IMG/VR virus record: IMGVR_UViG_3300042518_000658
Coordinates: 1 to 60,339 of that record
Origin: a virus
Taxonomy: Duplodnaviria; Caudoviricetes
Strand: one strand, 5' to 3'
Length of the DNA stretch: 60,339 bases
This document shows, in pieces, positions 47,510-52,791 of the stretch; position 1 is the first letter of the stretch, and each line of letters opens with the position of its first letter. The notes under the pieces were generated by a model that was not told the origin of the DNA, searched no databases, and saw only the letters and a list, made by a program, of their open reading frames with translations. Position numbers and translations under genes: made by a program.

Positions 47510-47713
47510 CTAGTTCTTCTCTTCCGATTCCGGCACGCCAGCAGCCGTCCGCTGCCTTGCCCACTCAGCACGGTCTTCGCCCTGCCACACAATCGAAGCA
47601 CCGGCCCCGACATACAAGACCTGCTCGGGCGTGAGTTCAACAGCGAACGGGTCGCCCGCTGGGGTACGCAGCACGAAGTAGGTGGTCCGCTCTGGGTATG
47701 CGATCTCCGTCAT
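47510..47713 (-). CDS. Small hypothetical protein (possible fibre chaperone)
   Basis: 67 aa; TGATG coupling to the upstream adhesin gene. Confidence 0.55.
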   Translation of the reverse strand: MTEIAYPERTTYFVLRTPAGDPFAVELTPEQVLYVGAGASIVWQGEDRAEWARQRTAAGVPESEEKN

Positions 47714-49269
47714 CAGACTGTCCCTCCGTCAGTGATCGTCCAGCCAAAGGCAATCAGGGACTGCTTGGCAGTTGTGCCTGCACCGCTGGACTTGGAATTG
47801 CCAAACGAAATGGCGTATGGCGTCTTGAATCGCACCGGAGCCAGCCGCCGGTTATTCCAATCCGTCAGCGTGTCGTTGTAGGCGTCCGTTGGCAGGCTAA
47901 AGTTTCCACCGAGGCTTGTGGGCGTGACGGCATTCGGCCCAATTGTCCAGCCAGTGAGCCTCTGATTGAACTTTCCGCATCCGGCGTAGATGCCCTCGAA
48001 GTGGGTGGTCGTCGGCCCGATCTCAATGTCGGATGACGTAAGTTCCGGGCATCCACTGAAGCAGCCGTTGATGCTGAGCAGACGGGATGTGTCTAGGCCA
48101 GAAAAGGTCTTGAGGGAGCGGCAGTTTCTGAAGGCTTGGATCATCTGCACGGGGCTTCCGCACTCACTAAAATCTGCGTACTCCAGTGCGATGCAGTTCT
48201 CGAAGGCAAGACCCCAATCCTCCGAAGAAGGCAGGTTCAGTCGGGTTAAGCCATTTTCATTGCTCAAGACCGCAGACAGAGACACGCACTCCCTAAACAA
48301 CGAACTGACTTCCGTAGCAGCGGGGGCATCTATGTAGGGGCATTGATCGAGCGACCGGCAACCTATGAACATCGCCGTCATGTCGATGGCCGAGGGGAAC
48401 GAGTAGGAAGTTTCCCCCGACAGCGCGAGGCAGGTTTCAAACATAAACCGGACGGACTCAGCGGCGGGCAGGTTCAGAGCAGGCCAGACCCGCATGGCCG
48501 AGCAGTTGCTAAACATACGATCCGCATTTACAGCGACAGGGGCACTTATTACCTGCCGCACGGTCATGGAGGTGCAGGATTCAAACATCCCGAACACGCT
48601 CGTCGCATTCGACAGGTCAAACGCCACTGGCTGATTGAAGGACGAGCAGCCGCTGAAAATACCTGACACGCTGGTGACGGCAGAGGTGTTAAAGAACAGC
48701 GGTTGATTGAATGAGCGGCAGTTCCTGAACATCCCGTCCATATTGGTGACGGTTAGGGGCGGTGCCGGAACGTGCATATTCATAAAAGAGGAACCGGAGA
48801 ACGCTTCGGCCAGCGAAGTCAGTCCGGTGTCGCCCCACGACAAGCAGCCGACCAGCATGGGACCGGCTGTGGATATGCGCGATACCGTGCCCCGAATGTG
48901 GACAACGTACAGCCCATCGGCGGCGTAAGTGTGCGTGGGCGAGTCATCGGTCACCGTCTCCTGCGGTGAGCCGTCACCCCAATCCACGACAGCATTCAGA
49001 GCCGCAGTTCCATTGCGGAGCGGCAGGGTGACGGTGGTGTCCCCAGTGCCGTCGTAGGTCGTGTCAAAGGCAAAGGCCAATGCAGTTGGGTCGAACTGCA
49101 CAATACGGCCATCGGGCAGTGATCGCAGGCCGGTCAGGTCAAGGTGCAGCAGGGAGTCGCTGCCCGTGCGGAGGGCGTTGTTCGGATCGGCACTGGGCGT
49201 GCTGGGGCCTTCAGGCCCGATCAGGCTGTGCCAATCTGCACCGTCGAATATCTGGACGGACTTAGCCAT
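47713..49269 (-). CDS. BspA/DUF285-type leucine-rich-repeat adhesin with PKD-like domain (probable receptor-binding protein)
   Basis: VDWGDGS...HTYAADGLYVVHIRG (PKD-like); repeats such as VTNMDGMFRNCRSFNQPL; C-terminal LIAFGWTITDGG. Confidence 0.85.
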   Translation of the reverse strand: MAKSVQIFDGADWHSLIGPEGPSTPSADPNNALRTGSDSLLHLDLTGLRSLPDGRIVQFDPTALAFAFDTTYDGTGDTTVTLPLRNGTAALNAVVDWGDGSPQETVTDDSPTHTYAADGLYVVHIRGTVSRISTAGPMLVGCLSWGDTGLTSLAEAFSGSSFMNMHVPAPPLTVTNMDGMFRNCRSFNQPLFFNTSAVTSVSGIFSGCSSFNQPVAFDLSNATSVFGMFESCTSMTVRQVISAPVAVNADRMFSNCSAMRVWPALNLPAAESVRFMFETCLALSGETSYSFPSAIDMTAMFIGCRSLDQCPYIDAPAATEVSSLFRECVSLSAVLSNENGLTRLNLPSSEDWGLAFENCIALEYADFSECGSPVQMIQAFRNCRSLKTFSGLDTSRLLSINGCFSGCPELTSSDIEIGPTTTHFEGIYAGCGKFNQRLTGWTIGPNAVTPTSLGGNFSLPTDAYNDTLTDWNNRRLAPVRFKTPYAISFGNSKSSGAGTTAKQSLIAFGWTITDGGTV

Positions 49270-49286
49270 TGAGGCTCCCTATCAGT

Positions 49287-49523
49287 TCAAGTGTTGTCGA
49301 TCCAGATGGCACCGGGCCGGGTCGGCGTCGGCTGCGAAGCCTGCACGAACACCTCGATGCTCTCGCCGTCATTGCCGGGGTCACCCTTGGCACCGTCCGC
49401 ACCGGGTGCCCCGTCCGCACCGGGAGTACCATCGGCACCGGGGGCACCGTCAACTCCGGCGTCACCCTTGGGGCCAATGAGGGATACCCATGCGGTTCCT
49501 GTCCAAATGCTTGCCGATGCCAT
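49287..49523 (-). CDS. Mini collagen-like fibre subunit
   Basis: About 12 uninterrupted Gly-X-Y triplets (GADGAP-type) between IWTGTAWV and PTPTRPGAIWIDNT. Confidence 0.8.
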   Translation of the reverse strand: MASASIWTGTAWVSLIGPKGDAGVDGAPGADGTPGADGAPGADGAKGDPGNDGESIEVFVQASQPTPTRPGAIWIDNT

Positions 49524-49536
49524 TCCTGCTTACTCC

Positions 49537-49734
49537 TTAGGGTTGAAACCAAATCGTTCCGGGTTTGGGATTGCTGGGAGCGGTGGCCTGCTCCACCACC
49601 ACGATTGACTCGCCGTCCTGTCCGTCTGCACCAGCCGGGCCAGCAGGGCCTTGGGGGCCGGGCGTACCGCCACCACCGCCTCCGGTGGAGACCGGAACCC
49701 AGTTCGCGCCGTCCCAGTAGTTGAGCGTTGGCAT
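49537..49734 (-). CDS. Mini collagen-like fibre subunit
   Basis: YWDGANWV, poly-Gly, a Gly-X-Y run, then APSNPKPGTIWFQP. Confidence 0.8.
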   Translation of the reverse strand: MPTLNYWDGANWVPVSTGGGGGGTPGPQGPAGPAGADGQDGESIVVVEQATAPSNPKPGTIWFQP

Positions 49735-49737
49735 TGG

Positions 49738-51159
49738 TTATTCGTATGCGGGGTAGGAGATGCCGTCGAGCCAGACAGTGTTGAGTGCGTTGTCGCAAGA
49801 AATGCCGACTTGCCGGTTAACCTGAAAGGTTGCGTACCCGTAGTAGCGACCGGCCGGGCTGGTGTTTTTACACGCCAGCGGGATCACCATTTCCCGAGGG
49901 GGTGGCGGGATCGTTGCGGGAAGTTGGAAAGCGTTGGCGATGTATCCCGACCCTATCGACTTCACCACCTCGCCTCGCAGATAAACCACGCCGTTCAGAA
50001 CCTTTGCCTGCGGGGTAGATGCGGCAGACCCAGCGTTGACCATATTTGTCCACGGCACATCGGCGGGGATAGTCTTGCCACCCGACATCATCTTCTTGAC
50101 TTCATCCAGCACCGATTGCTTGAAGGTGGCTAGGGCCGGATCATTGATCGACGGTGAGCCGAGCGGGTTGATAGCCGCCAGCCTGTCATCGACCTGCTTG
50201 CGGGAGTACAAGAACAACGCCATCTGGTTGTCGAAGTCGGCCTTGCTGAACGCTTGGTCAATTCGCATGAAGCGGTCATCGGTTTGCTTCTGCGTGTAGT
50301 ACCTGCCGTCCGACTCTGCACGGGTGTAGATGCTGTCGAAGATGGCCTGTGCCTGCGCCTGAAGCAGCGTGACGGCTTCCTTTCGGGCGTACTGCACATC
50401 GGCATCGACAATGGTGACGTAGGGGGAAAGATCGACCGCCGGTGCCGCCTTGGACTCCAGCGACTCCACCCTTGGCAGGAGTGCATTGAGCGGATCGAGG
50501 TCGGACTTTAGGACGAGGTAGTCATTGACCAAGCCCTGAGTGAAGACCAGACGGGGGCCATAGCCTTCACCAGTATCGGTGTAGGTGAGTGCCACCGGAG
50601 GCAGAAGGGAGTCGCCAAACCCAATAGCCTGAACGGTAGCGGTCTTGGCAAGGAGAGCCTGCTCGTTGTCCTGCTTCCGGGCGTAGCGTTCATCCGATTC
50701 GGCACGGTCGCAGTAGTCCGACAGGTCAACCACACCCCCGCCGCCGGTAAGGGCGAACAGGTCAACCATCTGGGGATTGTCGAAGGGCTTATCCAGTTCG
50801 GCACTGGTAAACCGCATCCACTTGCCGTCTGAGTCACAAGTGACAAGCGTGGACGGGTTCTGGGTTGTGGGCTGGCCCGTGCTGCTCTTGACGATCCTTG
50901 CCACCGAGCGGATCGGACCCTGCACCACTACCGTAGTCTGGTACTCCTGCCTCACGACAGAGATGACGGTTGCGGCGTCCTTGTAGTAGTGCAGGCCGTC
51001 AGCCAGACCCTTGTAGGCATCCTCGACACCGCTGGGGGTCGGGAAGGTCGGCTGCGGGATCGGGCCATCATGGATGGTGATGGACGATGGCGAACCACCA
51101 GCCCCGGAGCCGATCCATCGGCCATTGCTGTAGACGTAGAGAGCCTTGGCATCAGACAT
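49738..51159 (-). CDS. Tail fibre protein
   Basis: Repeated Y[TS]xx[EQ]xDxR[YFL] units; C-terminal NGVVYLRG...FQLP..WLDGISY tip domain. Confidence 0.7.
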   Translation of the reverse strand: MSDAKALYVYSNGRWIGSGAGGSPSSITIHDGPIPQPTFPTPSGVEDAYKGLADGLHYYKDAATVISVVRQEYQTTVVVQGPIRSVARIVKSSTGQPTTQNPSTLVTCDSDGKWMRFTSAELDKPFDNPQMVDLFALTGGGGVVDLSDYCDRAESDERYARKQDNEQALLAKTATVQAIGFGDSLLPPVALTYTDTGEGYGPRLVFTQGLVNDYLVLKSDLDPLNALLPRVESLESKAAPAVDLSPYVTIVDADVQYARKEAVTLLQAQAQAIFDSIYTRAESDGRYYTQKQTDDRFMRIDQAFSKADFDNQMALFLYSRKQVDDRLAAINPLGSPSINDPALATFKQSVLDEVKKMMSGGKTIPADVPWTNMVNAGSAASTPQAKVLNGVVYLRGEVVKSIGSGYIANAFQLPATIPPPPREMVIPLACKNTSPAGRYYGYATFQVNRQVGISCDNALNTVWLDGISYPAYE

Positions 51160-51844
51160 AAGCCGTTGCTCCGTCTAGCGTGACATGGGTGATCTTGCCG
51201 CCGATGGGGCAGATGGAGAGCCTGCCAGTGGTGCTAATCTGGTAGGCAACGGGCTTGAACGCCACGCCAAGTTCCTTGCCTACCAAGATGCCCTGATAGG
51301 CAACGTCGGGCTTCGGGAAAGATGCTGGCAGAGCGCGAACATCGGTGTACGAGCCAGTTGCCGAGTTCGTGTAAACGAGTTCACCCCGCAGCGTGATCTG
51401 GCCGTTGCGGAGGCGGGCCTCGATCAGGCCGGAGCCTGCGACGTTGGTGGTGGGCGTCCAGTTGATGTCTGGCGGGACTTCCTTGCCACCCGACATGGTC
51501 TTACGGACAAGGGCCACAACCTGCTGCTCGGTCAGGCCGGGGTTCTGCGAGATGGCACGGGCAACCTCCGCATCAATGTCCTCTCGCGTAACCAATGGGC
51601 CTGCGACCACGCCAGCCAGCCACAGGTCACCGTCCTTGCAGCCAGTAGGCTCGGCGTCCTGCTCGAACACTGCGGGGAGGTCTTCTGTCTTGGCGTACCC
51701 ATTAAGGTCAACCGGGCCGGCAGGCAGGTTCGCCAGCAGTTGATCTACTTCGGCATCTGTGTAGTAACCGACAAGCCCCTTCGTGTAAGCCCACGAAGAG
51801 GTGCTATCGGTTCTGGTCGGTGGCTGGCGGTCTGGGGCTGGCAT
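51152..51844 (-). CDS. Tail fibre protein with tip domain paralogous to 49738-51159
   Basis: YYTDAEVDQLL, MSGGKEVPPDINWT, NGQITLRGE and TLDGATAY. Confidence 0.7.
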   Translation of the reverse strand: MPAPDRQPPTRTDSTSSWAYTKGLVGYYTDAEVDQLLANLPAGPVDLNGYAKTEDLPAVFEQDAEPTGCKDGDLWLAGVVAGPLVTREDIDAEVARAISQNPGLTEQQVVALVRKTMSGGKEVPPDINWTPTTNVAGSGLIEARLRNGQITLRGELVYTNSATGSYTDVRALPASFPKPDVAYQGILVGKELGVAFKPVAYQISTTGRLSICPIGGKITHVTLDGATAYV

Positions 51845-52791
51845 TATTCGTCCGCTACAAGGAGGAGGTACTTCTTGCCGCCAATCAGGACAGGAATAGC
51901 CCCGGTGATGAGTGGCTGATGGAATGTCAGCCCGTCAGCGGACAGGCCAATGGGAGTGCCATCGGTCTGCGTCTCCACCATGGCCCCGTCAAACACGATG
52001 GGCGAGTCTTCTGTGAACACCCCACCAGCCGTAACCGGGGTGTTGTCAGCGGTGTTGACCCACAGGGCGTCACCAGCCGGAGCCGGAGGTGCGGTGTCGG
52101 AGGTGAAGACCTGCGGCTCAGACGAACCGCCAGACCCGGCAATCGGAACCCACGCCGTTCCGTTCCACACGTTGAGTTCAACGGCATTGGCTGCGGTGAC
52201 GGGCCTTATCCAGATGTCTCCAGTGCGGATGGCCGTTGGTGCGGTATCTGACTCAAAGACAGTGACTGATTCGCCGTCAACTCCGTCAGTTCCGGGCTGT
52301 CCGTCTTGCCCAGCGGGGCCTTCTGGCCCACGGATCGGTCCAGCAGGGTTCCACTTGGTGCCGGTCCAGACATAACCGTCGCCGGGCTGTGATCCTGCTG
52401 GTGCTGTCGGGGGGAGCGGGTCACCGAGAATCCAAAGGTCACCGATCTCAGGGACGCCAGCAGGGGGCCAAACATCGGCCTCGCCTTTGACCTGAATGCC
52501 TTTGCCCGGGGGTCCGGCGGGTCCGGGTAATCCCGGCTGGCCTGCTGGACCACGGGACAGGAGGTACGGCAACTCCGACCAGCGGGTGCTGCCGGTGCCG
52601 ATCTTCAGTTTCCCGGTGGGGTAGCCAATCTCGTAGCCGAACTCACCTGATTCAAGAACGGGATCGTTCTTGGACCAGTTCTCGGCAGAGTCCTGACGAA
52701 GGCTGATCCGCTGGGCGACCCGCTCATAGGAGTCGGCTGGGTTCAGGCCTTGGGCTACGCCAGAACGGTGGCTCGGTGGAACTAACGACAT
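51844..52791 (-). CDS. Tail fibre protein with Mtd/hyaluronidase-like N-terminal attachment domain and collagen repeats
   Basis: ISLRQDSAENWSKNDPVLESGEFGYE..TGKLKIGTGSTRWSELPY; Gly-X-Y runs; DGYVWTGTKW...GPIRGP. Confidence 0.8.
   Translation of the reverse strand: MSLVPPSHRSGVAQGLNPADSYERVAQRISLRQDSAENWSKNDPVLESGEFGYEIGYPTGKLKIGTGSTRWSELPYLLSRGPAGQPGLPGPAGPPGKGIQVKGEADVWPPAGVPEIGDLWILGDPLPPTAPAGSQPGDGYVWTGTKWNPAGPIRGPEGPAGQDGQPGTDGVDGESVTVFESDTAPTAIRTGDIWIRPVTAANAVELNVWNGTAWVPIAGSGGSSEPQVFTSDTAPPAPAGDALWVNTADNTPVTAGGVFTEDSPIVFDGAMVETQTDGTPIGLSADGLTFHQPLITGAIPVLIGGKKYLLLVADE

What the first reader, a model, noticed from the sequence alone, without database searches (positions are those of the whole stretch)
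47713..52791. Plug-and-socket fibre system: one hinge motif split across gene boundaries
Seen: in 51844-52791 the motif is contiguous (ESVTVFESDTAPTAIRTGDIWIRP...LNVWNGTAWVPI). Elsewhere it is cut in two. Four proteins begin with only the second half: LYVYSNGRWI (51159), LNYWDGANWVPV (49734), IWTGTAWVSL (49523) and IFDGADWHSL (49269). Four unpaired first halves exist: QVFTSDTAPPAPAGDALWVNT (in 51844-52791), VFEQDAEPTGCKDGDLWL (in 51152-51844), ESIVVVEQATAPSNPKPGTIWFQP-stop (49537) and ESIEVFVQASQPTPTRPGAIWIDNT-stop (49287). The two mini-collagen genes consist of second half, collagen rod, first half. They are separated from the downstream genes by out-of-frame gaps containing RBS-like sequence, so simple readthrough is not the explanation. 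Inference: the hinge domain is rebuilt in trans by strand complementation, giving a chain or branched fibre with extender units that may self-polymerise, capped by an LRR adhesin or tip domain.
Basis: partly seen in the sequence, partly recalled or inferred. Interest (0 to 1): 0.78.

Follow-up and report, generated by a model that had tools for sequence, protein, structure and literature searches.

The report
Split joint domain in phage fibres
In this phage's tail-fibre operon a small beta-sheet domain that normally sits between collagen-like rods is cut in two at gene boundaries, so that one protein ends with the first half and the next begins with the second half, which most likely lets separate fibre proteins snap together end to end.

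Summary
The window is a complete 60,339-bp podovirus-like phage genome. Six co-oriented minus-strand genes (47713-52791) form a tail-fibre operon.

A ~45-aa Trp-rich motif is contiguous in g1. Elsewhere it is cut at one loop. g4 and g5 end with the first half (H1). g3, g4, g5 and g6 begin with the second half (H2).

The split is conserved in 10 of 10 related fibre operons inspected. It gives 18 distinct stop|start junctions, with spacers of -1 to 62 nt in all three phases. Ribosome-binding cores precede 15 of 18 starts. In two relatives a whole extra gene lies between the socket gene and the plug gene. Readthrough, frameshift, decay and sequencing error are therefore excluded.

AlphaFold2 folds the intact motif as a compact beta-meander (pLDDT 89.1), and the cut falls in the loop between strands 2 and 3. 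Fused versions exist in other phages. By my unblinded count, unpaired H1s equal N-terminal H2s in 9 of 10 operons.

One complex prediction gave weak support only. Trans-complementation is thus well supported by inference but not shown (confidence 0.6). "Hinge" function and self-polymerisation are untested. I class it as a new variant of multi-protein phage fibres.

The parts
51844..52791 (-). g1, proximal fibre shaft (315 aa). Order: HylP/Mtd_N-like N-terminal anchor, collagen triplets, two contiguous copies of the motif, one lone first half, and a C-terminal ..GGKKYLLLVADE module.
   Evidence: One search gives the ORF. Mtd_N 23.3 bits (cut-off 26.3) and Collagen 20 bits (cut-off 27.2); tail fibre/tail assembly PHROGs, 3.5e-12 to 4e-11; residues 23-97 match the N-terminus of phage hyaluronidase 6x3m, E 9e-8.
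52330..52506 (-). Contiguous motif, long-loop type (..VWPPAGVPEIGDLWILG..GDGYVWTGTKWNPAGPIRG), flanked by G-X-Y triplets.
   Evidence: The same unit occurs inside the g5-like proteins of relatives.
52129..52278 (-). Contiguous motif, short-loop type (DGESVTVFESDTAPTAIRTGDIWIRPVTAANAVELNVWNGTAWVPIAGSG). This is the reference for the split copies.
   Evidence: AF2 model: pLDDT 89.1, with strands at residues 7-9, 22-27, 32-38 and 43-48.
52033..52095 (-). Lone first half (H1c) in g1, QVFTSDTAPPAPAGDALWVNT.
   Evidence: It aligns with the conserved HIVSxVEPPPxxExGxLWIDPTG consensus of the 8 aligned g1 homologues.
51152..51844 (-). g2 (230 aa). N-terminus MPAPDR.., an internal lone first half, then a helix and a receptor-binding head domain.
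   Evidence: The C-terminal 135 aa gave an AF2 model with pLDDT 86.4. Its best Foldseek hit is the lactococcal phage RBP head 2fsd_A, E 2.3e-4, TM 0.62/0.74.
51614..51673 (-). Lone first half in g2 (AVFEQDAEPTGCKDGDLWLA).
   Evidence: H1 profile hit at residues 58-77, 18 bits. Conserved in the g2 homologues of L030, L034, L035 and L167.
49738..51159 (-). g3 (473 aa). Divergent second half at the N-terminus (ALYVYSNGRWIG, roughly 51109-51144), a long shaft, and a C-terminal head domain related to that of g2.
   Evidence: In alignment A6 the g2 and g3 C-termini are 29% identical. Homologues start MKTLNVYNNGKW.. or MKTLHVHSNGQW...
49537..49734 (-). g4, mini-collagen extender (65 aa). Second half (about 49690-49725), 7 G-X-Y triplets, then first half ending at the stop (about 49540-49608).
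   Evidence: Homologues of 64-68 aa occur in L030, L034, L035 and L167.
49524..49536 (-). g4|g5 spacer, 13 nt (GGAGTAAGCAGGA), out of frame. It carries an RBS core and a TAA in the g5 frame.
49287..49523 (-). g5, mini-collagen extender (78 aa). Second half (about 49476-49511), collagen repeat, then first half ending at the stop (about 49290-49361).
   Evidence: Collagen 32.9 bits (cut-off 27.2). Also.
49270..49286 (-). g5|g6 spacer, 17 nt (ACTGATAGGGAGCCTCA), out of frame. It carries an RBS core, and TGA and TAG in the g6 frame.
47713..49269 (-). g6, distal adhesin (518 aa). Second half at the N-terminus (about 49219-49254), then GPEGPSTPSADPNNAL.., a PKD-like stretch and DUF285/BspA-type leucine-rich repeats.
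   Evidence: DUF285 79.1 bits (cut-off 25), LRR_5 22.1 bits (cut-off 27.7), PKD_4 18.3 bits (cut-off 27). H2 profile 40 bits at residues 1-19.

Best explanation
The operon encodes one modular, probably branched, trimeric tail fibre built from six separately translated proteins.

The joint is a small four-stranded beta-meander that, in its contiguous form, sits between collagen-like rods. At the g4|g5 and g5|g6 boundaries, and at many boundaries in related phages, this domain is divided in the loop between its second and third strands.
- The upstream protein ends with strands 1-2. This is H1, the socket.
- The downstream protein starts with the strand 3-4 hairpin. This is H2, the plug.

I propose that the two halves re-form the domain non-covalently. 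The upstream C-terminal edge strand would pair with the downstream N-terminal hairpin, once per chain and so three times per trimer. This would join the proteins head to tail and set the register of the next collagen helix.

g1 anchors the assembly to the tail through its HylP/Mtd_N-like N-terminus. g4 and g5 are collagen extenders. g2 and g3 (RBP-head fold) and g6 (DUF285/BspA LRR) are three alternative receptor-binding ends. g3 and g4 would plug into the lone H1 elements of g1 and g2.

What is shown: the split, its conservation, independent translation, the fused counterparts and the predicted fold.
What is inferred: the trans assembly, which plug fits which socket, and the branching.
For: 1. 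The split is real and under selection.
- I found 18 distinct H1-stop|start-H2 junctions in the window and its IMG/VR relatives. Spacers run from -1 to 62 nt, with phases 0/1/2 seen 3/6/9 times.
- The same gene order occurs in a relative whose portal is 81% identical.
- Conservation is at the protein level. In 16 sequences the invariant residues are G, G, V, P, G, W in H1 and G, W, G, G in H2, at 36-42% mean column identity. The DNA copies inside the window are only 63-74% alike over at most 39 nt.

2. The genes are translated separately.
- SD-like cores lie upstream of 15 of 18 plug-gene starts, against 19% of random 15-mers.
- Stops close both frames at the two window junctions.
- In L033 and L035 an extra ORF (245 aa in L035) lies after the socket gene; in L035 the plug gene follows it.

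3. Sockets are followed by plugs.
- Of 46 ORF ends that matched the loose H1 regex, 17 were followed within 100 nt by an H2 start.
- Of the other 29, I judged 6 to be genuine fibre-type ends.
- Five of those 6 are followed by a variant H2 start or by the inserted ORF; in L035 the plug gene then follows. One (L021) is not.

4. The two halves are parts of one domain.
- AF2 folds the contiguous window copy as a compact meander (50 aa, 23-row alignment, pLDDT 89.1, pTM 0.69).
- The cut falls in loop 28-31, between strand 22-27 and strand 32-38.

5. Fused counterparts exist.
- Collagen-H1-H2-collagen occurs in cis in unrelated IMG/VR contigs such as L111, L151 and L062.
- H1-H2-GPxGP-SADAGN occurs in cis in P0153 and P0148.
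- In L032, L033 and L034 the part matching the C-terminal third of window g1 starts as its own ORF within the motif's loop region (MADAVELRVWNGTAW..).

6. The counts match.
- By eye, in 10 distinct operons, unpaired H1 against N-terminal H2 was 4/4, 4/4, 5/5, 4/4, 4/4, 4/4, 5/5, 5/5 and 3/3. One operon gave 3/4 (L048).

7. Complex prediction.
- I submitted g5(20-78) x3 with g6(1-70) x3. The verdict was weak support: score 0.53, best of 3 controls 0.00.
- The mark was reached by 58 of 80 solved complexes and by 2 of 110 mismatched pairs. At 0.60 or under, only 7 of those 80 reached it, as did both mismatches that passed.
- The runs agree in at least 97% of contacts and the partner pLDDT is at least 71.
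- I used my own alignments and trimers, which differs from the calibration set.

8. The plug is a widespread N-terminal module on very different C-termini.
- Profile A5 found 901 proteins at E<=1e-3 among 1.84 billion representatives.
- 75 of the best 150 begin with H2 within 25 residues. They are 76-841 aa long.
Against: - No experiment and no confident structure shows the halves together. The single complex job gave only weak support, and no interface was returned.
- The AF2 model is a monomer, so packing in a trimer is unknown.
- I made the plug/socket counts by eye and knowing the hypothesis. g3-like proteins carry a degenerate H1-like stretch (ITIHDGPIPQP..GLHYY) that I did not count, and counting it would unbalance several operons. 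L048 is unbalanced.
- Two of the four plugs in the window (g3, g4) have no H1-ended gene upstream. They would need the internal H1s of g1 and g2, where the host chain continues. Whether a plug can enter there is untested.
- The lone H1 of g1 may be completed in cis by IVFDGAMVE.
- One H1-ended ORF (L021) has no plug gene after it.
Confidence: 0.6

Rival explanations
1. The two halves work independently. The N-terminal H2 hairpin is a common anchor or trimerisation nucleus. It would dock each protein on some other tail component, or only nucleate its own collagen helix. The C-terminal H1 would be a cap. On this reading the proteins are separate short fibres and not a chain.
For: - 75 of the best 150 library representatives carry the plug on very different C-termini. 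This is the usual pattern for receptor-binding proteins that share one virion anchor.
- g3 and g4 have no H1-ended gene upstream.
- The best, weak, structural neighbour of the intact domain is a collagen trimerisation domain, 9bnb_A: Z 4.8, rmsd 2.1 A, 45 residues aligned.
Against: - It does not explain why H1 sits at the very C-terminus directly upstream of H2-first genes at 18 junctions.
- It does not explain why the cut coincides with a loop of one predicted domain.
- It does not explain why fused forms keep the same order and spacing.
- It does not explain why free H1 and plug numbers track each other from 3 to 5 across operons.
Confidence: 0.25
2. The motif marks module boundaries only as an evolutionary scar. 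On this reading, recombination shuffles fibre modules at this conserved linker, and the halves left at gene ends have no assembly role.
For: - The operons are highly mosaic. g1 is fused to a tip in L039 and split in L034, extender lengths range from 64 to 294 aa, and tips differ.
Against: - DNA identity between motif copies is only 63-74% over at most 39 nt, which is too low and too short for homologous exchange within this genome.
- The invariant Trp, Gly and Pro are kept at the extreme termini across relatives that share only 25-66% identity. That argues for selection on the protein.
Confidence: 0.08
3. The pieces are joined during translation (readthrough, frameshift or ribosome hopping) into one long fibre protein, or the breaks are pseudogenisation or sequencing errors.
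For: - The spacers are short at the two window junctions (13 and 17 nt).
- g3|g4 is in frame, with a single TAA and a 3-nt spacer.
Against: - Each downstream frame carries its own stop in or next to the spacer, at or after the upstream gene's stop.
- Spacers range from -1 to 62 nt in all three phases, and three of them are about 60 nt long.
- RBS cores precede 15 of 18 starts.
- In L033 and L035 an extra ORF follows the socket gene; in L035 it is 245 aa and the plug gene comes after it.
- The split recurs in 10 distinct contigs.
- The in-frame g3|g4 arrangement is not kept in relatives, where the gaps are 1-2 nt.
Confidence: 0.03

Closest known systems
Phage T4 long tail fibre (gp34-gp35-gp36-gp37), as I recall it from the literature; no call tested it.
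   Same: Successive genes encode trimeric (gp35 monomeric) pieces that join end to end, proximal to distal, in gene order. The distal piece binds the receptor.
   Different: In T4 the joints are not visibly two halves of a domain that is contiguous elsewhere. T4 has no collagen-like extenders and no common plug motif. The only sequence link found here is a sub-threshold Phage_T4_gp36 hit in a relative's 563-aa protein (19.1 bits, cut-off 26).
Chain-like fibres of podophages GP4, VP1 and A1002 (PMC13730344; I read passages).
   Same: Several small fibre subunits are strung together. Attachment is by beta-sheet augmentation between different polypeptides.
   Different: In those phages, fibre dimers dock side by side on a 'rope' domain of a nozzle protein. 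Here, trimeric rods would be joined head to tail by a split domain. There is no collagen and no sequence similarity.
Trimerisation domains of collagens XV/XVIII (multiplexins).
   Same: A small beta-rich domain of about 50 residues lies directly beside a collagen triple helix. It is the best structural neighbour of the AF2 model: 9bnb_A with Z 4.8, rmsd 2.1 A and 45 of 57 residues aligned, and 3n3f_B with Z 3.0.
   Different: The match is weak, with every Z below 5, which the tool says can reflect a common arrangement only. Identity is 16%. The multiplexin domain is never split between polypeptides.
T4 fibritin foldon. The resemblance is recalled: a Pro-rich lead-in followed by a Trp-containing hairpin next to a trimeric rod.
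   Same: A short hairpin with a central Trp acts as a trimer node and is widely used to nucleate collagen-like helices.
   Different: No fibritin chain appeared in the PDB profile search at E<=10 or among the listed structure matches. This domain has four strands, not one hairpin.
Donor-strand complementation in chaperone-usher pili (established knowledge).
   Same: An incomplete beta-sheet in one subunit is completed by an N-terminal strand of the next subunit, giving non-covalent polymers.
   Different: Those are monomeric Ig-like pilins of bacteria with a chaperone-driven exchange. Here the partners are trimeric phage fibres, a hairpin is donated rather than a single strand, and there is no chaperone evidence.
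Conserved N-terminal anchor with variable C-terminus in phage receptor-binding proteins, such as lactococcal BppU/BppL and RBP head domains.
   Same: The g2/g3 head domain shares the lactococcal RBP head fold (2fsd_A E 2.3e-4; TP901-1, p2 and PSA RBPs). A conserved N-terminal module sits on very diverse distal domains.
   Different: In this phage group the anchor is half of a domain, and the other half is carried by the preceding fibre protein.

Membership tests
Collagen triple-helix repeat (PF01391) | G-X-Y repeats scoring above the Pfam gathering cut-off | tested here: met
   g5 scores 32.9 bits against a cut-off of 27.2. g1 scores 20 bits, below the cut-off. g4 has no Pfam hit but shows 7 G-X-Y triplets by eye.
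HylP / Mtd_N N-terminal fibre anchor (PF18454) | N-terminal ~40-aa domain matching the family profile | tested here: inconclusive
   g1 residues 31-69 score 23.3 bits, below the 26.3 cut-off. However, residues 23-97 match the N-terminus of phage hyaluronidase 6x3m at E 9e-8, and tail-fibre PHROGs match at 1e-11 to 1e-12.
DUF285 / BspA-type leucine-rich repeat | Profile match above the gathering cut-off | tested here: met
   g6 matches DUF285 at 79.1 bits (cut-off 25), in two stretches. LRR_5 scores 22.1 bits, below its 27.7 cut-off.
Lactococcal-phage-type RBP head domain (fold) | Beta-sandwich head preceded by a helix, structurally superposable on solved RBP heads | tested here: met
   The AF2 model of the g2 C-terminal 135 aa has pLDDT 86.4. 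Foldseek gives 2fsd_A at E 2.3e-4, prob 1.00, TM 0.62/0.74 and rmsd 2.7 A. PSA gp15, TP901-1 and p2 RBPs follow. The fold matches; no sequence family was assigned.
T4 fibritin foldon | Sequence or structure match to the fibritin C-terminal hairpin propeller | tested here: inconclusive
   No fibritin chain appeared at E<=10 with profile A4. None is among the rows listed by Foldseek or VIA-align. A 50-residue query gives low power.
Multiplexin collagen trimerisation domain | Structural superposition well above background, with trimer formation | tested here: inconclusive
   It is the top VIA-align hit, but only at Z 4.8 (9bnb_A), with 3n3f_B at Z 3.0. Oligomeric state was not testable with a monomer model.
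T4-type serial tail fibre (end-to-end joined gene products) | Physical head-to-tail association of products of consecutive genes | tested here: inconclusive
   The only test was one complex prediction for g5 with g6. It gave weak support: 0.53 against a best control of 0.00. 58 of 80 solved complexes and 2 of 110 mismatches reached the mark; at 0.60 or under, 7 of those 80 did, as did both mismatches that passed. The question needs biochemistry or cryo-EM.
Donor-strand complementation systems | An incomplete sheet in one subunit is completed by an N-terminal element of the next | not testable with these tools
   This is only inferred, from the position of the cut in the AF2 monomer model. No interface was returned.

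The most novel reading that the evidence does not exclude
The H1/H2 pair is a generic, partly promiscuous connector. Any plug can enter any free socket, and the H2-collagen-H1 extenders can add to themselves. One operon would then yield a population of fibres of variable length and branching, displaying three different receptor-binding ends. This would be a combinatorial host-range device, and because it is readable from sequence it could be reused to build designer fibres.
Probability: 0.2. Interest if true: 0.85.

Novelty: new variant of a known kind. Interest (0 to 1): 0.62.

Why it matters
Multi-protein phage fibres are known, but how their pieces recognise one another is rarely visible from sequence. 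Here the joint can be read directly: a C-terminal half-domain and an N-terminal half-domain that are one domain elsewhere.

If the trans assembly is confirmed, it would:
- give a rule for predicting which fibre genes connect, and in what order, in uncultured phages. The plug heads 75 of the best 150 representatives in a 1.84-billion-protein library;
- offer a natural example of a domain split by gene fission that still assembles;
- provide a small, portable connector, next to collagen rods of tunable length, for engineering receptor-binding proteins onto phage or pyocin scaffolds.

Tried and rejected
- GenBank phages. The region gave no blastn match. The portal gave one weak hit, Microcystis phage Mae-Yong1326-1, at 23.3% identity over 33% of the query. 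No annotated relative could be used.
I replaced it with a degenerate DNA pattern for WxGTAWV.
- The word-index search with g5 found only 9 proteins at E<=1e-3. One of them, P0007 (72 aa), is a true mini-collagen with both halves. That tool is not sensitive for this query.
- PDB by sequence. g1 matched only through its N-terminal anchor. The intact-motif profile gave one borderline hit, the C-terminus of 9d83_D 'Gp49', at E 0.058. I could not trace a paper for that entry (the hits were unrelated). Profile A2 gave nothing meaningful.
- Foldseek on the 50-aa model gave nothing at E<=1e-3.
- A foldon relationship was considered and is not supported.
- A DNA-level recombination or inversion switch was considered. 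There are no long repeats, no inverted-repeat cassette, and no minus-strand promoter-like or terminator-like sites inside the operon.
- Recoding was rejected.
- Literature searches for a described split fibre joint found nothing relevant. The term sets were: 'tail fiber' + 'collagen-like' + 'foldon'; 'tail fiber' + 'strand complementation'; 'collagen-like' / 'tail fiber' / 'split' / 'adjacent genes' / 'trimerization domain'; 'tail fiber' / 'gene fission' / 'split domain' / 'head-to-tail' / 'collagen'; and a cryo-EM podophage set. Subscription journals and supplements were not searchable.
- The Pa223 preprint (passages read) describes a different fibre attachment and has no gp49.

Full report
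**What the window is**

The 60,339-base window is the whole assembly, a single contig. GC content is 56-64%. Its 712-aa portal is P22/SU10-like by sub-threshold Pfam hits, so this is a podovirus-like phage genome.

GenBank phages hold no usable relative. IMG/VR holds many: 29 loci for g1 and 20 for g3, several on contigs of 61-63 kb. Two metagenome-assembled bins hold portal relatives at 81% and 70% identity.

**The observation**

Six tightly packed minus-strand genes lie between the portal region and the downstream tail genes:
- g1, 51844-52791, 315 aa
- g2, 51152-51844, 230 aa
- g3, 49738-51159, 473 aa
- g4, 49537-49734, 65 aa
- g5, 49287-49523, 78 aa
- g6, 47713-49269, 518 aa

No minus-strand promoter-like or terminator-like site lies inside this region.

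- g1 has the contiguous motif.
- g4 and g5 are second half, G-X-Y triplets, first half, stop.
- g3 to g6 start with the second half.
- The g4|g5 spacer is 13 nt and the g5|g6 spacer is 17 nt. Both are out of frame and carry GGAG-type cores.
- In both cases the downstream reading frame holds its own stop in or next to the spacer, at or after the upstream gene's stop.

In the whole window the second-half regex hits only the three N-termini of g4, g5 and g6 (3 of 3 hits). The first-half regex hits 7 times, 3 of them in these genes.

**Is it chance, decay or recoding?**

It is none of these, for the following reasons.
- The same architecture is present in all ten distinct fibre operons I inspected. 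These are the window, eight IMG/VR contigs and one MAG contig.
- I found 18 distinct junctions where an ORF ends with H1 within 8 residues of its stop and the next ORF starts with H2. The spacers run from -1 to 62 nt, with phases 0/1/2 seen 3/6/9 times.
- SD-like cores precede 15 of 18 of these starts, against 19% of random 15-mers.
- In L033 and L035 an extra ORF (245 aa in L035) lies after the H1-ended gene; in L035 the H2-first gene follows it.
- With loose regexes, 60 of 1796 forward ORFs against 13 of 2164 reverse-strand ORFs carry an N-terminal H2. The figures for a C-terminal H1 are 46 against 13.
- Of 46 H1-like ORF ends, 17 are followed by an H2 start within 100 nt. Of the remaining 29, I judged 23 to be regex noise in spurious or unrelated ORFs and 6 to be genuine. 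Five of the 6 are followed by a variant H2 start (YFDKDKQEWV, IYAGAIDGWV) or by the inserted ORF; in L035 the plug gene then follows. L021 is a true exception.
- Conservation is at the protein level. The invariant residues are G, G, V, P, G, W in H1 and G, W, G, G in H2 across 16 rows. The DNA copies within the window are only 63-74% identical over at most 39 nt.

**What the motif is**

The contiguous form is common in fibre proteins of unrelated viral contigs.
The regex called 27 of them contiguous, and several more look contiguous by eye.
- Only one match was an N-terminal plug behind an H1-ended ORF, and that one belongs to this phage group.

Pfam has no family for the motif. In the PDB only the C-terminus of 9d83_D 'Gp49' resembles it, at E 0.058.

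AlphaFold2, run on the window's contiguous copy with a 23-row alignment, gives a confident compact meander. The model has pLDDT 89.1 and pTM 0.69, with strands at residues 7-9, 22-27, 32-38 and 43-48. The gene-boundary cut maps to loop 28-31. H1 therefore supplies strands 1-2, and H2 supplies the strand 3-4 hairpin.

Foldseek finds nothing at E<=1e-3. The best VIA-align neighbour is the collagen XVIII trimerisation domain, with Z 4.8, rmsd 2.1 A and 45 of 57 residues aligned. Collagen XV follows at Z 3.0. This is a weak match and I use it only as an analogy. My recalled resemblance to the T4 foldon found no support.

**Fused against split**

- Collagen-H1-H2-collagen occurs in cis in other phages, for example L111, L151 and L062.
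- A profile of the g6-type N-terminus (H2 + GPxGP + SADAGN, 48 positions) found 901 proteins at E<=1e-3, and 162 at E<=1e-10, among 1.84 billion representatives.
- 75 of the best 150 begin with H2. They are 76-841 aa long and have very diverse C-termini.
- P0153 and P0148 carry H1 directly upstream in the same chain.
- In L032, L033 and L034 the part matching the C-terminal third of window g1 is a separate ORF. It starts within the motif's loop region (MADAVELRVWNGTAW.. against window ..AANAVELNVWNGTAW..). The upstream ORF has acquired a tip-like end.

**The rest of the machine**

- The g1 N-terminus resembles the HylP/Mtd_N anchor.
- The shared C-terminal domain of g2 and g3 folds with pLDDT 86.4 as a beta-sandwich head. 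It is most similar to lactococcal phage receptor-binding heads: 2fsd_A at E 2.3e-4 and TM 0.62/0.74, then the TP901-1, p2 and PSA RBPs.
- g6 carries DUF285/BspA-type repeats at 79.1 bits.

The operon therefore encodes one anchor and shaft, two collagen extenders and three receptor-binding ends.

**Mechanism proposed**

The C-terminal H1 of one trimer and the N-terminal H2 of the next would rebuild the domain non-covalently and join the proteins head to tail. g3 and g4 would use the lone H1 elements inside g1 and g2, which would create branch points.

Support beyond the anatomy:
- By-eye counts of unpaired H1 against N-terminal H2 agree in 9 of 10 operons, while the number itself varies between 3, 4 and 5.
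- One complex job, g5(20-78) x3 with g6(1-70) x3, returned weak support: score 0.53 against a best control of 0.00.
  - 58 of 80 solved complexes and 2 of 110 mismatches reached the mark. At 0.60 or under, only 7 of the 80 did, as did both mismatches that passed.
  - The runs agree in at least 97% of contacts, and the partner pLDDT is at least 71.
  - I used my own alignments and trimers, which differs from the calibration set.

Weaknesses:
- The counts were not blind, and they omit a degenerate H1-like stretch in g3-like proteins.
- L048 is 3 against 4.
- No interface was returned by the complex job.
- Entry of a plug at an internal H1 is untested.
- The lone H1 of g1 could be completed in cis.

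**A second candidate joint**

In g1 homologues that carry two copies of the C-terminal module, the linker between copies reads ..YLLPLIE-APxxLPxxxSTPLFTFAD... At the g1|g2 boundary the text reads ..YLLP(L/V)xxE* followed by MPAPDRxxP...KGIVGYY. This looks like another cut inside a repeated unit. The similarity is modest and I did not test it further.

**Comparison and novelty**

End-to-end fibres made of several gene products are known from T4, as I recall. Conserved N-terminal anchors on variable receptor-binding proteins are also known, as is beta-sheet augmentation in the chain-like fibres of GP4, VP1 and A1002 (PMC13730344, passages read).

What I did not find in five literature searches is a joint that is visibly one domain split across gene boundaries next to collagen rods. 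Subscription journals and supplements could not be searched. I class this as a new variant of a known kind.

**Verdict**

- Trans-complementation is the best explanation, at about 0.6.
- Independent roles for the two halves stand at about 0.25.
- The 'hinge' function, self-polymerisation and the exact branching remain open.

Noticed in passing
window 51835-51860 (g1|g2 boundary); L030, L035, L045, L167 g1 C-termini: This may be a second split joint. The C-terminus of g1 (..GGKKYLLLVADE*) and the N-terminus of g2 (MPAPDRQPPTRTDSTSSWAYTKG) resemble the two sides of the linker between tandem copies of the same module in longer g1 homologues (..YLLPLIE-APATLPPDSSTPLFTYAD..).
   Followed up: partly
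window 51155-51559 and 49741-50145 (C-termini of g2 and g3): g2 and g3 share a C-terminal domain that is 29% identical between them. Its AF2 model (pLDDT 86.4) has the head fold of lactococcal, Listeria and reovirus receptor-binding proteins. Together with the g6 LRR domain, this gives the phage three different receptor-binding ends.
   Followed up: yes
L035 10800-11537; L033 downstream of 10903: An extra ORF (245 aa in L035; only a sub-threshold NBD_C Pfam hit, 17.9 bits) follows the socket gene in two relatives; in L035 the plug gene comes after it. Its function is unknown.
   Followed up: partly
L038, L041, L043, L049 junction spacers (59-62 nt): Four of the 18 junctions have spacers of about 60 nt. 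These contain GC-rich self-complementary stretches such as GGGATGGCAATCTCGCCTCCC. They could be terminators, RNA-processing sites or regulatory hairpins inside the fibre operon.
   Followed up: no
L167/L168 (contig JBIPMW010000293.1) and L169: The nearest portal relatives (81% and 70% identity) lie in MAG bins labelled Crocinitomicaceae and Porticoccaceae. The first contig carries the portal twice, about 65.6 kb apart, which suggests an assembled phage concatemer binned with a bacterium and not a prophage. Host assignment from these bins is unsafe.
   Followed up: partly
P0010-P0159; window 49150-49200: The stretch after the g6 plug (SADxxNALxxGSDxLL) is itself a widespread repeat. Many library proteins match only profile positions 24-45, up to 36 times in one 2210-aa protein (P0010).
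   Followed up: no
window 49735-49740: The g3 stop (TAA) is in frame with the g4 start, three bases further on (..AYE*PMPTLNYW..). Relatives have 1-2-nt gaps here, so this looks accidental.
   Followed up: yes
L167 19770-21977; L030 11615-13870: Relatives carry a further large collagen-rich fibre gene (735 and 751 aa) downstream of the g6 equivalent; the L167 copy has an Mtd_N-like start. The window has only a 67-aa ORF at that position (47510-47713).
   Followed up: no
L039 7260-8879; L034 5897-6982: The g1 anchor is fused directly to a g2-like head domain in L039 (539 aa). In L034 (361 aa) it is fused to a different tip-like end. This shows that tips are exchanged onto the proximal shaft at the H1 position.
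   Followed up: partly
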